Source: Chrysomallon squamiferum
Lineage: Eukaryota > Animalia > Mollusca
Assembly (NCBI GenBank): GCA_012295275.1
Contig: CM022670.1
Coordinates: 5,704,001 to 5,768,000 of the forward strand
Length of the DNA: 64,000 nucleotides
Direction of reading: 5' to 3'
Part shown: piece by piece, positions 1 through 58,005 of the stretch
Position numbering within the stretch: position 1 is the first letter of the stretch
How the letters are laid out: each line of letters starts with the position of its first letter
The notes under the pieces: model-generated
Seen by the model: only the letters and a program-made list of their open reading frames with translations
Told to the model about the DNA's origin: nothing
Database searches by the model: none
Position numbers and translations under genes: made by a program

Positions 1-314
1 GGTGTATATTTTGTGTGTACATATAAATACTGCATATATTTCATGTGTACATATAAATACTGTGTATATTTCGCATGTACATACAAATACTGTGTTTATT
101 TCATGTGTACATATAAATCTGGTGTCTATTTTATGAGTACATATAAATACTGTGTAGATTTCACATATTCATATAAATAAGGTGTATATTTCATGTGTTC
201 ATATAAATACTTTGTATATTTCTGCCATGCATTTAAATGTTGTCTGTATTTCATGTATACATATAAATACTGTGTATATTTCACATGTAACTATAAATAC
301 TGTGCATATTTCAG
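1..314 (+). repeat. 30-bp minisatellite ending in the acceptor of the first TRPC coding exon
   Basis: About 10 copies of TGTGTATATTTCATGTGTACATATAAATAC; the last copy reads TGTGCATATTTCAG|GTGT. Confidence 0.9.
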
Positions 315-334
315 GTGTGGTCTGATTGTGAGAC

Positions 335-52563: not shown

Positions 52564-55500
52564 ATGCGACTTTCTGAATGTGCGGCTAACAACATCGGCA
52601 TTTCCGGTATCAAGTATGTCTTGGGTCCAGACGTCTCTGTTGTTCGGAGGTAAGATATATCATTTATTTCTGTTCATAACTCACAGAGAGAGAGAGAGAG
52701 AGAGAGAGAGAGAGAGAGAGAGAGAGAGAGAGAGAGAGAGAGAGAGAGAGAGAGAGAGAGAGAGAGAGATTATTATTTTAAAAGTATTTCAAAACGCAGA
52801 AATCATTTATCTTTTATCATATATTATGTTTTATTTTACCAGACTGCTCTGGTTGATCTGTATTGTCATGGCAACGGCTTGGATGTTGTGGAATATTCAA
52901 GGTCGCGTTGTCTACTTCATTTCAAGACCATCCGCCATTAATACAGAAATGAAATTCAAAAACAAACTGATGTTTCCAAAAATAACAATATGTAACCAGA
53001 ACATGTTCAGGTGAGAAAAATTATTCATTTAACTATTAACATTGTGAAGTAAATATAGTAAAAATTAAATACCAAAATTCATAAGTATTAAATACAAATG
53101 TACATACTATGATTAATTATTTTACTCAGATACAGTTTTAGTTATGAAATACACACAGAATCTCAAAGAAAAGAAAGCAGTGAAAACGTATAAACATTTT
53201 TTTAATGAAGTAATAATTTATATGAAATAAATTAATAATATAGCGTATATAAATATGAAAATTAAAAAATCTTGATATCTTGTTATTTTACCAAAAACAT
53301 GCTCAGATTATGTAGTCATGCAAAACATAGGACATTATTTCACTTTTGTTAAAAAGTAACCATAGATTTTTTTATATATACAGACTTTGTTTATTAGACT
53401 AATTATCTTTGTATAGACGTATTTGGGGAATTCAACACACACTAGTAACGTATCGTAGAAGTGAACCTTCACTGCCTGGAGTCTGGCAGACATTATTTTA
53501 CAAAACTTCACAGATACTTTAAAGAAGAAATGTTATAACTGGTGTCACGAAACCATCATTAGTGTTTCCTCAAACCTCTTTCTGTGTGTTTTCTCCGATT
53601 GTTCAGAAACTGATATCAAATAAAAACAGATATTTTTTAGTAGATAAACTAAACACTAGCATTTTTCTGTCACATCTAGTAGAAAAACTAAAAACAAACA
53701 TTTTTCTGTCCGATTTAACAGTTAAACTAAACATTTTTTATATATATAAAATCTTATTGACAAGCTAAACACAAGATTGTTTCTCACAGATCTAGCAGAT
53801 AGACTGCACACACACATTTTAATGTCAGATTTTGTGTATAAACTAAATACATTTCTCTGTCAGATCTAGTAGAAAAACTAAACAAAAACATTTTTGTCAG
53901 ATTTAGTAGACCATCTAAACACATTTTTCTGACAGATCTAGCAGAGTGTTTGAAGAGTCAGAAACACCACACAAATCTCCCACCTTGTACGAAGCAGTAG
54001 ACAGATACTTACAGGTTCTACCAGACGATAACAAATATCAGTCACTCAGACAGAAAGTGATTGACAAATATGAAAAACTTCTCAGAGTAAAACATGTCAA
54101 GGAATTCTACAGAAAAGTTTCACATCAGAAATCTACACTCATTCATAGGTTTGTAGATTGTTTTATATATATATAAACGTTATGTTAAAAAAAATGAATG
54201 AAAAGAAAAGTTGAATACAAAAAACAAAATCTAAAAATTACAAAGTAAGCTTATTTTTGTTTTGTGAAATTAATGGATTTCGTTACAAATGAAATTAAAA
54301 CTTTATATTCAAATATTTACGAAAAATATATATTAATTTGGTATAGACAGAAATCTACCGAGATTTGTTTTTCATGTCGTATTCAAGACATTTTACCGAT
54401 ACGTTATACAATTATTTTGTTTAGCATAACACTGGCATTCAAGTTTAACTTTTTTGTAACGATAATAGTTACAGGAGTCGACCCGTCTGCTTCGTGACAC
54501 CGTTTTCTACATACCTGAAGAAAAGATCTGAATTCCGATTTATGCTTAATCTGTTTATTTTAATCATTAGTTGACGTATATTTCAAATAGCATTTTAATA
54601 GCTGATCTCTGGTAGCGTTCCACGTCACTGACCACACACCCACATGTAAATATGTAATTCTATCGTTTTGTTTTTGACTGTAGATGCGTCTGGAAAGGTC
54701 AACAATGTGGTCCAGAAAACTTCACAGAGGTTTTTACCAACATGGGAATTTGTTACCAGTTCAATGTCGACAGAGAACATATGATTGTTGACAAAGCAAG
54801 TAAGTATCAGTTCATTGTAAGATGCAAACAATAAAATACTAGTAATAGTAATAATAACATTAGAAATATTGGTAATCACAATCATCATAAGAAAGAAAAA
54901 AGAAAACGCTTTCATTTCAGACAGAGATGGCGGACTGGATGTGACGTTGTTTGTTGAACAATATGATTACATGCGAGGACCACAAACTACAGCTGGAGCT
55001 CTTGTTCTTGTTACTGCCCACAATGAAACCGCAGCTTTGGCAAAAGAGAAAGGAATTGGACTGACTGTTGGTCAGTCTATTTCTGTTGGTCTAGAGCAAC
55101 AAGACGTACGTAAACATTTTTGGTTTATATTTACCACAGAAAGAAGAACGTTTTCATGAAACTGTTAAAATGCATAACCATAAACAGTTTGCTTATGTGA
55201 AACTGTATTTAAATAAATACGACTGATAATTACTCATTTATTATTTAGGTTGTAGATTTGACACCACCTTACGGCTCATGTGGAACCGCTGAACTGGAAA
55301 ACTACCCTTCAGATGAGCCCTACACTTACCAGAAATGTCATCTCAACTGTCTGACGTCATTCATCAAGCGAAAATGTGGTTGTATCAGCATCTATATGCC
55401 TGGTAAAAAAAAAAAAAAAAAAAGTAATAATAATAATAATAATAATAAAATATTTTGAGAAAAAAATACAGATATCTCGTATCTCATTTACATACATATA

Positions 55501-58005
55501 GTTTTAGAACAAAAAGTTAATAAAGTTGATTTATACAGTTACTACAGAGAATATCTGGCAGTTATTAATCAAGTTATCCAGTTATTTTAATGTATAAATA
55601 GCGGCTGTAATATTTATTATTGATAAACTCTTTTATAGGAGAAACTTCCCGGTACTGCTCAATGCTAGATAACCTGCAGTGCTTTATTTCTAACGAAGGT
55701 ATAGCAATATTTCATTTGTAAACGAGTGGACTATTTATTGTTCATATTTGTCATGATACCAAGTAGGCAATTTTATTAAAGAACATTCGTTTAGAATTTG
55801 TCATTGTATGCAATTTAAAGCTGCGTAGATTAAGAAATAATAGTAATAAAAATATTGTAAAATATTGTAAATCGTTAACTACTTCGTATAAACTATGAAA
55901 CCGTGAATATTTTAATGATTTACAGATAAATCAAATGTAATTATATTCAGTTATTAATCAGATATAAATATTTCCAGTTACTAGTAAGTGTGAAATATTT
56001 TCAGAGTGACATGAAAATATATTCAGAGTAAAACGTTGACATTTAAATATTTTCAGTGTTAATAGTGATAATATAAATAATTCCAGTTACTAGTACCGTT
56101 GAAATATTTTCAGAGTTGTTCTACAGAAGAAACCAAATTAACGCGTGTAACTGCCCCTCCCCCTGTCAGTCTACTAATTACGTGTATTCCGTGTCCTTCG
56201 TTCAGTTCTCTGACTCGTTTAGTCAGAGTCTGTCTTTAGATGACCACTCCGTGTCTGTGGCCACTGCAAACAGAGCAGTGGCGATTCAAGCCTGGGGTTT
56301 ACTTAACAGGATGAACACTAGCATCACAGACAATCTGGCAGAACTGGCAATACACACTGAAAATCTAAAACCCTTGTGGTATCGGACGTCTTCTCTTCTC
56401 CATGATTTTGTTGATGAAACGAAAAGTCTTCTCACTTTTGCGATCAAACACAACTTGACAAGCGATTTGAAGACAGATGTCAAAAGTATTCGTAATGCTC
56501 TGTCACACATCAGTGTGTACACTGAAATATGCGACGGTGACATTTCTGAGAAAAAATTCAGAAATACTAAAGATTTCCAAATAGCTGGATTAGTCCTGAC
56601 GGGCGTTCGATTATGGATCGACAGAGTCTGGTTTGCTATTTTCGGTGTACATGAACGCTATAGAAAATACGAGGCGAAAATATTCAAATTCAGACAAGCT
56701 GTTACTGATTTGATACAGTCTAGAAATATTTCATATGGAAGTGTTTATCAGACGACAACTGTAGAGCCAGTAGAAACTTTAAATGCTTCTCAGCTAAAAG
56801 AAAATCTAAAGCAACAGCTAAACTATCTGATGTCTGAATTAAGCACCTATAACGACAACACCAAGGAAAAGGAAAGATATATCTTACGCCATTACAGGTC
56901 ACAGATGAACACGCTACAGGAAATAGGAAAGAAGGCTTACAAAAAGATCACACCTGTCTTTTATAGGTAAACATCATTAAAGATATTTTTATACCTGTAA
57001 TTTACAGGTAAATGTAACTATAAGATATTTATTTTATGCCTGATATTTAAAATATATAATTTATCTAACCTGAATGATCTAGTGCAGTAATGTAATTTTA
57101 ATATTTGAGAATTGTTTCATATTTTCTAACATACATAATTTAAATATATTTTCCTTGGATAATTTGTTTTTATCTGTTTTTAATTCCAGTGAAAACCTTC
57201 TGAAACTGGAAATCTATTTTAAAGATCTGAGTGTACAAAGTTCTAGAAAATCACCGGCGTATTCAGCTGAGGGTCTAATTTGTGAGTAAATACGTTTTCC
57301 AACGTTTTCAAGTAAACCTTAGAAATAACTTAAAATATACATTTATATAGATATACGTTACAGACGATATAGGTAATATACTGTTTACATTACAGGTGAT
57401 ATAGATGACGTATAATTTATTTTACATATGATACAGATGACGTACTGTTTATAATACAGCTGATATTGTGACACTATTGGTCATATTCCAACTGATGGTA
57501 TTTCGTTTTACAGGTAATACAGGTGATGTTGGTTTTATTTTTACAGGTATTATAGCTGGAAGTATTGTTATATTACAGGTAATACAGGTGATGATATTTA
57601 TATTTACAGGTGATATAGGTGGAAGTATTGGTTTGTGTCTAGGTGGAAGTATTCTGACACTGGTGGAAATATTTGATATTTTAGCCATTTTGTTTGGTAA
57701 TCGTGAAAAACATGCGTCAGGTTTGTTCATGATTTTTATATTCTCTGAATAATAATTGTATGCCAGTACATTCATTTCTAGAATTTAAATAACAGAGATA
57801 TCGTACCACACTGAGACAGACAGAGAGAGAGAGAGAGAGAGAGAGAGAGAGAGAGAGAGAGAGAGAGAGAGAGAGAGAGAGAGAGAGAGAGAGAGAGAGA
57901 GAGAGAGAGAGAGAGATTTAAAAATATAAATTAGATATTTACAATATTTTTATGTTTATTTATATTTGTCTTTCAGAAAGTAGATCACCTGAGCATAATG
58001 GTTAG
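52564..58005 (+). CDS. DEG/ENaC (ASIC-like) channel paralog 6, intact, about 688 aa
   Basis: Exons 52564-52649, 52843-53010, 53936-54148, 54684-54799, 54921-55105, 55249-55402, 55639-55698, 56114-56966, 57190-57281, 57610-57720, 57977-58005 sum to 2067 nt in frame: [18 protein letters not shown]..., [63 protein letters not shown]. Confidence 0.92.
53560..53940 (+). repeat. Degenerate repeat of the exon-3 acceptor (homologous inverted array at 47201-47630)
   Basis: Repeats of TTTTTCTG(A/T)CAGATCTAGTAGA...CTAAACAC leading to the real GACAG|ATCTAGCAGA at 53935/53936. Confidence 0.8.
57385..57635 (+). repeat. ~63-bp repeat of the TM2-exon acceptor (homologous arrays at 35101-35260, 42998-43310, 27050-27145)
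   Basis: Repeated TTTACAG|GTGATATAGGTGG(A/C)AGTATTG units upstream of the real acceptor at 57609. Confidence 0.85.

What the first reader, a model, noticed from the sequence alone, without database searches (positions are those of the whole stretch)
1..57635. Minisatellites repeatedly seeded on splice junctions, in two unrelated gene families
Seen in sequence: at least 15 introns carry tandem arrays whose unit is the neighbouring exon-intron boundary. Donor-type arrays (exon end plus GT, spreading downstream): 4606-5012, 9138-10140, 11586-11965, 12295-12920, 26780-27050, 31545-31680 (minus), 56950-57050. Acceptor-type arrays (pyrimidine tract plus AG, often plus exon start, spreading upstream): 1-314, 14215-14364, 28070-28300, 30640-30790, 35101-35260, 36560-36710, 42998-43310, 47201-47630, 53560-53940, 55960-56113, 57385-57610. 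The units are unrelated to each other except between paralogs, so this is not one repeat family. The functional copy sits at the exon-proximal end and copies tend to decay away from it. Inference: a recurrent process (slippage or repair focused at splice junctions, perhaps linked to spliceosome pausing or R-loops) grows introns by copying splice signals, and the cell must resolve arrays of decoy sites. I cannot confirm from here whether this has been described.
Basis: partly seen in the sequence, partly recalled or inferred. Interest (0 to 1): 0.85.

Follow-up and report, generated by a model that had tools for sequence, protein, structure and literature searches.

The report
Mirage repeats at snail splice sites
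In a sea-snail genome, about one splice junction in six in this window has been copied head-to-tail into the neighbouring intron; this is a known repeat type (lancelet "mirages", chicken "exon stuttering", the human F7 repeat), the cell likely keeps using the copy next to the exon, and the roughly threefold excess at junctions is likely due to such repeats lasting longer there.

Summary
The arrays are real. The window holds a TRPC channel gene, six DEG/ENaC paralogs and RFC3; the best named hit is the snail Gigantopelta aegis (94%). 17 of 105 annotated junctions have a junction-spanning copy in their own intron, against 76 of 1,494 control positions (3.2x). With TRF the excess is 2-3x, and with paralogs collapsed p<0.05 in only 8 of 12 settings. 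The 58-bp array is multi-copy in three other runs, and one run appears to carry a one-unit-shorter allele of another array. Decay away from the exon is weak, and GT/AG is kept in 61 of 104 copies, about like neighbouring bases. RNA could not show which site is used. The phenomenon is published (amphioxus mirages, human F7/CBS VNTRs, chicken exon stuttering), and this scan noted it 44 times in at least 16 genomes. Verdict: new member of a known kind. The cause of the junction excess stays open; longer survival is favoured over spliceosome- or R-loop-directed birth.

The parts
315..20077 (+). TRPC (TRP-gamma-like) gene, 11 coding exons: 315-748, 3605-4129, 4399-4633, 8500-8649, 9034-9173, 11239-11588, 12117-12318, 13344-13538, 13762-13803, 14365-14554, 19357-20077
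   Evidence: open 1,054-aa frame; Pfam TRP_2, Ank, Ion_trans; 921 of 1,054 identical to G. aegis P0002
1..318 (+). acceptor-type array, 30 bp x10.6; 0 of 9 copies keep AG
4606..5170 (+). donor-type array, 52 bp (28 exon + 24 intron nt); 3 of 10 copies keep GT
9137..10140 (+). donor-type array, 58 bp (37 exon + 21 intron nt); 15 of 16 copies keep GT, 14 within 2 bits of the real donor
   Evidence: multi-copy depth in three other runs
11571..11965 (+). degenerate donor-type array, 47 bp
   Evidence: score 20, below the threshold of 22
12297..12900 (+). donor-type array, 55 bp (22 exon nt); 6 of 9 copies keep GT; run X6 appears one unit shorter
13211..13343 (+).
14215..14364 (+). acceptor-type array, 20 bp x7.4; 6 of 6 copies keep AG; related to the adjacent 75-bp array 13955-14240
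26698..27520 (+). 3' fragment of DEG/ENaC paralog F
26796..27054 (+). 51-bp array just inside the F intron-9 donor; junction content marginal
28022..32298 (-). DEG/ENaC paralog A, frameshifted pseudogene lacking exon 10
   Evidence: sequence
28067..28299 (-). acceptor-type array, 40 bp x5.9, at A's putative last exon; 4 of 5 copies keep AG
30640..30790 (-). two-copy duplication (68-70 bp) of A's exon-5 acceptor; copy has GG for AG
31543..31683 (-). single degenerate copy of A's exon-2 donor region; not an array
34993..41401 (-). DEG/ENaC paralog B, 10 exons, open frame
35080..35275 (-). B intron-9 acceptor array, 31/62 bp
36558..36718 (-). B intron-7 acceptor duplication, 84-85 bp
42640..48326 (-). 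DEG/ENaC paralog C, 11 exons, open frame
42977..43315 (-). C intron-9 acceptor array, 31/63 bp
47191..47630 (-). C intron-2 acceptor array, about 39 bp (10 exon nt; acceptor at 47200/47201)
51127..51290 (-).
52564..57720 (+). DEG/ENaC paralog E, 10 exons annotated, open frame
53638..53945 (+). E intron-2 acceptor array, 35-39 bp (acceptor at 53935/53936)
55925..56116 (+). E intron-7 acceptor duplications (60 and 109 nt back)
56950..57050 (+). E intron-8 donor duplication, 41 bp; the copy scores higher than the real donor
57335..57630 (+). E intron-9 acceptor array, 31/63 bp; 6 of 7 copies keep AG
62512..64000 (+). RFC3-like gene; 0 of 8 junctions carry copies (internal control)
   Evidence: the name RFC3 is recalled from the protein sequence

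Best explanation
These are 'mirage' minisatellites: local tandem repeats whose end unit is a real exon-intron junction, which likely arose as ordinary small duplications in a repeat-prone genome and likely persist because splicing keeps using the copy next to the exon. Step 1 (shown): a 20-110-bp segment spanning the junction lies head-to-tail in the intron, each array with its own unit. Step 2 (inferred): only copies that grow into the intron are tolerated, which by itself fixes the 'donor arrays downstream, acceptor arrays upstream' geometry. Step 3 (inferred; tested in human F7, not here): the first donor or last acceptor wins, and most leaks would be destroyed because 47 of 54 phased decoys give a stop or frameshift. 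Step 4 (partly shown): arrays turn over by slippage or unequal exchange (higher-order A/B units; one allele a unit shorter). Step 5 (inferred): the 2-3x excess at junctions comes mainly from longer survival. The anchor copy is held by selection on the exon and splice site, its flank is hard to delete, and in the ENaC cluster gene conversion from near-identical exons likely carries arrays between paralogs.
For: Units contain exon ends or starts plus GT/AG. The exon-proximal sites give a frame colinear with four gastropod orthologs at 10 of 10 TRPC junctions. GT/AG in copies is no better kept than other bases (157 of 208 vs 3,347 of 4,072), as expected for neutral copies. Decoy use would give a stop in 40, a frameshift in 7 and an open in-frame insert in 7 of 54. 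The region makes arrays everywhere: 18 interior vs 9 junction arrays. For survival: among ENaC B, C and E only 8 of 27 intron pairs align better than shuffles, and 7 of these are acceptor ends with an array in at least one partner; those 7 top the 54 flank comparisons, one tied with an array-free site. Interior ENaC arrays have no paralog match. The 58-bp unit has 5-10x flanking depth in runs X2, X4 and X6, and X6 is 55 nt shorter across the 55-bp array by arithmetic. An unrelated 71-bp acceptor array sits in another animal's TRPC gene (L002:3609-3864). Published precedent: PMC3087553, PMC3902484, PMC1557585, PMC12954441.
Against: No RNA joint was seen: run X8 covered 6 of 30 bins, gave no joint, and had low-depth contigs inside the array, so site choice is inferred from protein homology only. 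Survival versus birth cannot be separated in one window. The ENaC intron-7 acceptor carries different periods in B (84-85), E (60, 109) and D (27) and none in C, which could mean repeated birth at one junction. Conserved array flanks among paralogs could also reflect function. 7 decoys would give open in-frame inserts.
Confidence: 0.65

Rival explanations
1. Duplications are born preferentially at splice junctions. Either co-transcriptional R-loops or paused spliceosomes expose the DNA there, or strand invasion between alleles or paralogs starts in conserved exon sequence and slips where homology ends at the intron edge.
For: Excess of 2.5-3.2x in four scoring settings and 2-3x by TRF; TRPC alone 6 of 21 junctions, p about 5e-4; different periods at the same ENaC acceptor; ENaC arrays sit beside exon ends that are 91-100% identical between paralogs.
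Against: The window was chosen for this pattern; p>0.05 in 4 of 12 paralog-collapsed settings and TRPC-only p=0.09 with lenient TRF; RFC3 0 of 8; many equally conserved exon ends have no array; no unit holds an exon-exon join, so nothing points to a spliced-RNA template; 1 of 11 related TRPC loci had a junction array and none at the window's sites.
Confidence: 0.2
2. There is no real excess: this is a minisatellite-dense stretch with short introns, and junction arrays stand out only because exon sequence is recognisable.
For: 23.5% of interior control positions have a nearby copy vs 16% of junctions; paralog sharing inflates counts; the window was picked after the fact.
Against: A junction can only lie in an end unit, and against that null the excess holds in all 4 settings and 8 of 12; TRF misses some true junction arrays (4649, 11593), so it undercounts.
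Confidence: 0.09
3. The decoy arrays are kept by selection as splicing regulators or as sources of alternative in-frame exon extensions.
For: Array-bearing acceptor ends are nearly the only intron sequence still alignable between ENaC paralogs; 7 decoys give open in-frame inserts, one at 63 nt in both C and E; human CBS and 6-16 use some pseudo-sites (PMC1557585 passages).
Against: GT/AG in copies is slightly less conserved than other bases (75% vs 82%); 0 of 9 copies keep AG in the 1-314 array; B's copy at 62 nt lost AG; none of four orthologous TRPC protein models has an insert at these junctions.
Confidence: 0.05
4. The arrays are assembly artefacts.
For: No laid contig spans a whole array.
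Against: Copies differ from each other; unit contigs, variant units included, occur at 5-10x depth in three runs from three studies; paralogs share diverged arrays. Only 3 arrays were laid.
Confidence: 0.01

Closest known systems
Amphioxus 'mirage' minisatellites (Adh3, globins BflGb6 and BflGb9, troponin C, PGBD5); PMC3087553 and PMC3902484, passages read; the original Adh paper PMC117041 was not held and is known only through these
   Same: Tandem duplications of either the 5' or the 3' exon-intron boundary; units of tens of bases; many but not all copies keep AG/GT; real copy at the array end; allele length differences.
   Different: Here a gastropod; 17 of 105 junctions in one window; a count against a null; arrays shared between tandem paralogs. 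Normal splicing was shown by RT-PCR in amphioxus and is only inferred here.
Human F7 intron-7 37-bp VNTR, with CBS intron 13, 6-16, lamin B2 and PDGF intron 4 repeats; PMC1557585, abstract and passages read
   Same: First unit spans the exon-intron boundary and identical decoy donors follow (as at 9137-10140); the most upstream donor is used.
   Different: Single donor-side loci in human; here both sides and many per gene; the scanning mechanism was not tested here.
Chicken 'exon stuttering' on dot chromosomes; PMC12954441, abstract, passages, section 7 part 2 and section 9 part 2 read
   Same: Locally born intronic arrays of exon-edge sequence, source within 1 base of the exon border in over 90% of cases, embedded among intron-only arrays; mechanism unknown.
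   Different: Chicken: GC-rich dot chromosomes, 190 of 5,572 introns (3.4%, exon hit of 20 nt or more), spans to 23 kb. Here AT-rich DNA (about 22-36% GC outside the satellite), spans under 1.1 kb, higher local density under a looser criterion.

Membership tests
mirage minisatellites | tandem repeat whose unit spans an exon-intron boundary | tested here: met
   exon part 3-38 nt, none detectable in two acceptor arrays
mirage minisatellites | minisatellite-size units (10-72 bp Adh3, 150-160 bp globins) | tested here: met
   periods 20-109 bp
mirage minisatellites | both 5' and 3' boundaries affected, real copy at the array end | tested here: met
mirage minisatellites | many but not all copies keep AG/GT | tested here: met
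   61 of 104 copies
mirage minisatellites | regular splicing is not disturbed | tested here: inconclusive
   RNA run gave no joints; protein colinearity at 10 of 10 junctions is indirect
mirage minisatellites | length polymorphism between alleles | tested here: inconclusive
   one contig of run X6 is 55 nt shorter across the 55-bp array, by arithmetic; one contig only
mirage minisatellites | somatic instability (Adh3) | not testable with these tools
   needs single-molecule typing of one animal
F7-type donor VNTR | decoy donors identical to the real one | tested here: met
   14 of 16 copies at 9137-10140 within 2 bits, most with the same 9-mer score
F7-type donor VNTR | 5'-to-3' scanning selects the first donor | not testable with these tools
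   needs minigene mutants
chicken exon stuttering | 20 nt or more of exon edge repeated in the adjacent intron | tested here: met
   28, 37, 22 and 38 exon nt at 4606, 9137, 12297 and 30640; 18-21 nt at ENaC intron 9
chicken exon stuttering | GC-rich, G4-prone dot-chromosome setting | tested here: not met
   window GC about 0.22-0.36 outside the satellite

The most novel reading that the evidence does not exclude
Invertebrate genomes have a mutational process that seeds tandem duplications at exon edges, for example strand invasion that starts in a conserved exon and slips where homology ends at the intron, so that mirages mark recombination or repair tract ends; in tandem gene clusters the arrays then extend the homology and spread between paralogs, and can delete whole exons (as may have happened to exon 10 of ENaC A).
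Probability: 0.2. Interest if true: 0.65.

Novelty: new member of a known kind. Interest (0 to 1): 0.3.

Why it matters
The repeat type is known, so the window adds a dense molluscan example, not a new element. It gives natural tests of splice-site choice on both sides (16 near-perfect decoy donors; 6 decoy acceptors 20 nt apart). It warns that such arrays break short-read assemblies and mislead gene models. The open question, whether junctions attract duplications or only preserve them, did not complete in any paper I found and is testable with this snail's whole genome and population reads.

Tried and rejected
No whole genome is held, so no genome-wide test. RNA run X8 on 8990-12460 gave no joints and no cover of exons 6 and 7; its low-depth array contigs could be pre-mRNA or DNA, so it is no evidence either way. 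Arrays outside 8990-12460 were not checked against reads. My first control kept microsatellites and gave 18 of 105 vs 61 of 700; it was replaced by masked versions. My first acceptor for exon 3 of C and E was 9 nt too far in and made those arrays look intron-only; corrected. Searches used the old coordinates; those arrays cross the junction under both. One search also mis-mapped AG in the 20-bp array, so its scores are superseded. A graded decay along arrays was tested and not established. A purge of GT/AG was tested: the 7-point deficit is small and copies are not independent. One shared repeat family was rejected. Related TRPC loci (11, 51-78% identity) were too distant for orthologous arrays; the repeat before an acceptor in L009 is a degenerate TTA-like tract, not a junction copy. 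Nine paper searches returned no paper on mirages in molluscs and no null-model test of junction excess; the library lacks most subscription papers. PMC6905558, PMC12783039 and PMC10078293 (passages) did not bear on it; PMC2812944 was seen in outline only. No supplements were read; those of PMC3087553 and PMC12954441 hold repeat alignments that could sharpen the comparison.
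Full report
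What the window is. The sequence is AT-rich animal DNA. It holds a TRPC channel gene on the plus strand (315-20077), six DEG/ENaC-family copies (F, a 3' fragment; A, a frameshifted pseudogene; B, C and E, open; D, a remnant) and the start of an RFC3-like gene. TRPC exon 2 is 94% identical to a Gigantopelta aegis protein and 80-84% to other gastropods, so the host is likely a close relative of that snail; the species was not established. No whole genome is held.

The observation. TRF lists 121 rows, and most named arrays are among them. I annotated 52 introns plus the acceptor at 315, 105 junctions in all, and asked for each whether a segment spanning the junction recurs in its own intron. 17 of 105 pass. 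Three further sites were missed (13211, 27056, 51130). Units are unrelated except between paralogs and one adjacent pair. ENaC intron 2, 7 and 9 arrays are shared by paralogs at 74-95% identity, so about 13 origins are independent.

More than chance? It depends on the null, and both results are given. Of 1,494 control tests inside introns, 351 (23.5%) have a copy nearby, more than junctions do (16%). But a junction can only sit in an end unit, since copies cannot grow into the exon, and only 76 of 1,494 controls are end units. That gives a ratio of 3.2 (2.5-3.2 over four scorings; p 2e-5 to 2e-3, treating sites as independent). TRPC alone has 6 of 21 and RFC3 0 of 8. A TRF-based count gives 9 of 27 intronic arrays on junctions against 3.2 expected, and 16 of 58 against 7.4 (arrays with units under 14 bp, low complexity or GC under 12% were dropped first). 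With one ENaC paralog at a time the ratio is 1.2-3.7 and p<0.05 in 8 of 12 settings. The window was chosen for the pattern, so 2-3x is more likely an upper than a lower figure.

Are they real? The 58-bp unit at 9137 assembles at depth 84.7, 884 and 404 in runs X2, X4 and X6, against 10.7-12.5, 89-175 and 40-42 for flanking single-copy DNA, and variant units are present (4 of the 11 listed runs were laid, and the possible source run X1 was left out). One X6 contig has 310 letters where the window has 365 across the 55-bp array, one unit fewer (arithmetic). These are unstable genomic repeats, not artefacts; full copy numbers need long reads.

Which site is used? Splicing at the exon-proximal GT or AG gives a 1,054-aa frame that is colinear with four gastropod orthologs at all 10 junctions. 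The one RNA run gave no joints, so direct proof is missing. Across 18 arrays, 61 of 104 copies keep the dinucleotide and 48 score within 2 bits of the real site on matrices trained on this window's own junctions. Of 54 decoys with a known phase, 40 would add a stop, 7 a frameshift and 7 an open in-frame insert; 7 more lie in a UTR or pseudogene. Identity at GT/AG is 75% against 82% elsewhere, so there is neither strong purging nor conservation. Decay with distance is weak: 7 of 12 arrays have negative rho, none is significant, pooled z is -1.9, and -0.09 with the earlier probes.

A clue to the excess. Introns of ENaC B, C and E have diverged past alignment: 8 of 27 pairs beat 30 shuffles, and 7 of the 8 are acceptor ends with an array in at least one partner. 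The same 7 head a ranking of 54 junction flanks, while other junctions with 98-100% identical exon ends have flanks near background. Exon identity is patchy (third positions 13-100%), which suggests gene conversion. So junction arrays are old, or are carried between paralogs, whereas interior ENaC arrays are private. This fits longer survival at junctions. It does not exclude repeated birth, since the intron-7 acceptor has different periods in B, D and E and no copy in C.

Elsewhere. Among 11 distant TRPC loci from metagenome contigs, L002 ends in a 71-bp array made of 28 intron and about 43 exon bases at the exon-7 acceptor, an independent case in another animal. None had arrays at the window's sites.

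What is known. Amphioxus globin, Adh3, troponin C and PGBD5 genes carry the same structures, named mirages, reported not to disturb splicing. Human F7, CBS, 6-16, lamin B2 and PDGF carry donor-side VNTRs, and in F7 only the first donor is used. A 2026 paper screens chicken for exon stuttering, finds it in 3.4% of dot-chromosome introns and leaves the mechanism open. Nine searches of the held library found no mollusc report and no null-model test. This scan's own notes list 44 such findings in at least 16 genomes, one on another piece of this genome; these are unchecked notes and no support. I reached the mirage reading, before seeing them, and took the chicken lead from them.

Verdict. A real, dense example of a known repeat type in a new taxon, with a modest junction excess. 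Most likely these are neutral duplications that are tolerated through ordered splice-site choice and preserved longer at junctions (0.65). Junction-directed birth remains possible (0.2) and is the part worth a genome-wide test.

Noticed in passing
window 14555-14637: Reading through the TRPC exon-10 donor gives a short alternative C-terminus ([12 protein letters not shown]...) that matches the end of the Patella protein P0016 at the same junction: a likely conserved short isoform.
   Followed up: partly
window 28300-28367 (minus): ENaC pseudogene A has no exon 10: one decayed copy of the intron-9 acceptor unit runs straight into the next acceptor array, as if the exon was deleted between two arrays.
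   Followed up: partly
window 35711-36560, 43717-44569, 56114-56966: ENaC B, C and E share an 850-853-nt exon of which only the first 85-93 residues match Pfam ASC; the remaining ~190 residues are a fast-diverging insert.
   Followed up: no
window 34993-57720: Exon identity between ENaC paralogs is patchy (third positions 13-100% in 45-nt blocks), suggesting gene conversion in the cluster.
   Followed up: partly
window 23661-26697: GC-rich 374-bp satellite, 8.1 copies at 96%, right after a 200-N gap and directly abutting the ENaC F fragment.
   Followed up: no
window 37640-39150: A 1.5-kb insert in ENaC B intron 6 with broken reading frames that look transposase-like (recalled resemblance, not searched).
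   Followed up: no
L002:3609-3864: Acceptor-type 71-bp junction array in another animal's TRPC gene, running off the contig end.
   Followed up: yes
window 13250-13343: The TRPC exon-8 acceptor lies in an A-rich repeat and has no clear pyrimidine tract.
   Followed up: no
window about 59000-60890 (minus): Probable further gene starting near 60887, head to head with RFC3; not annotated and left out of the counts.
   Followed up: no
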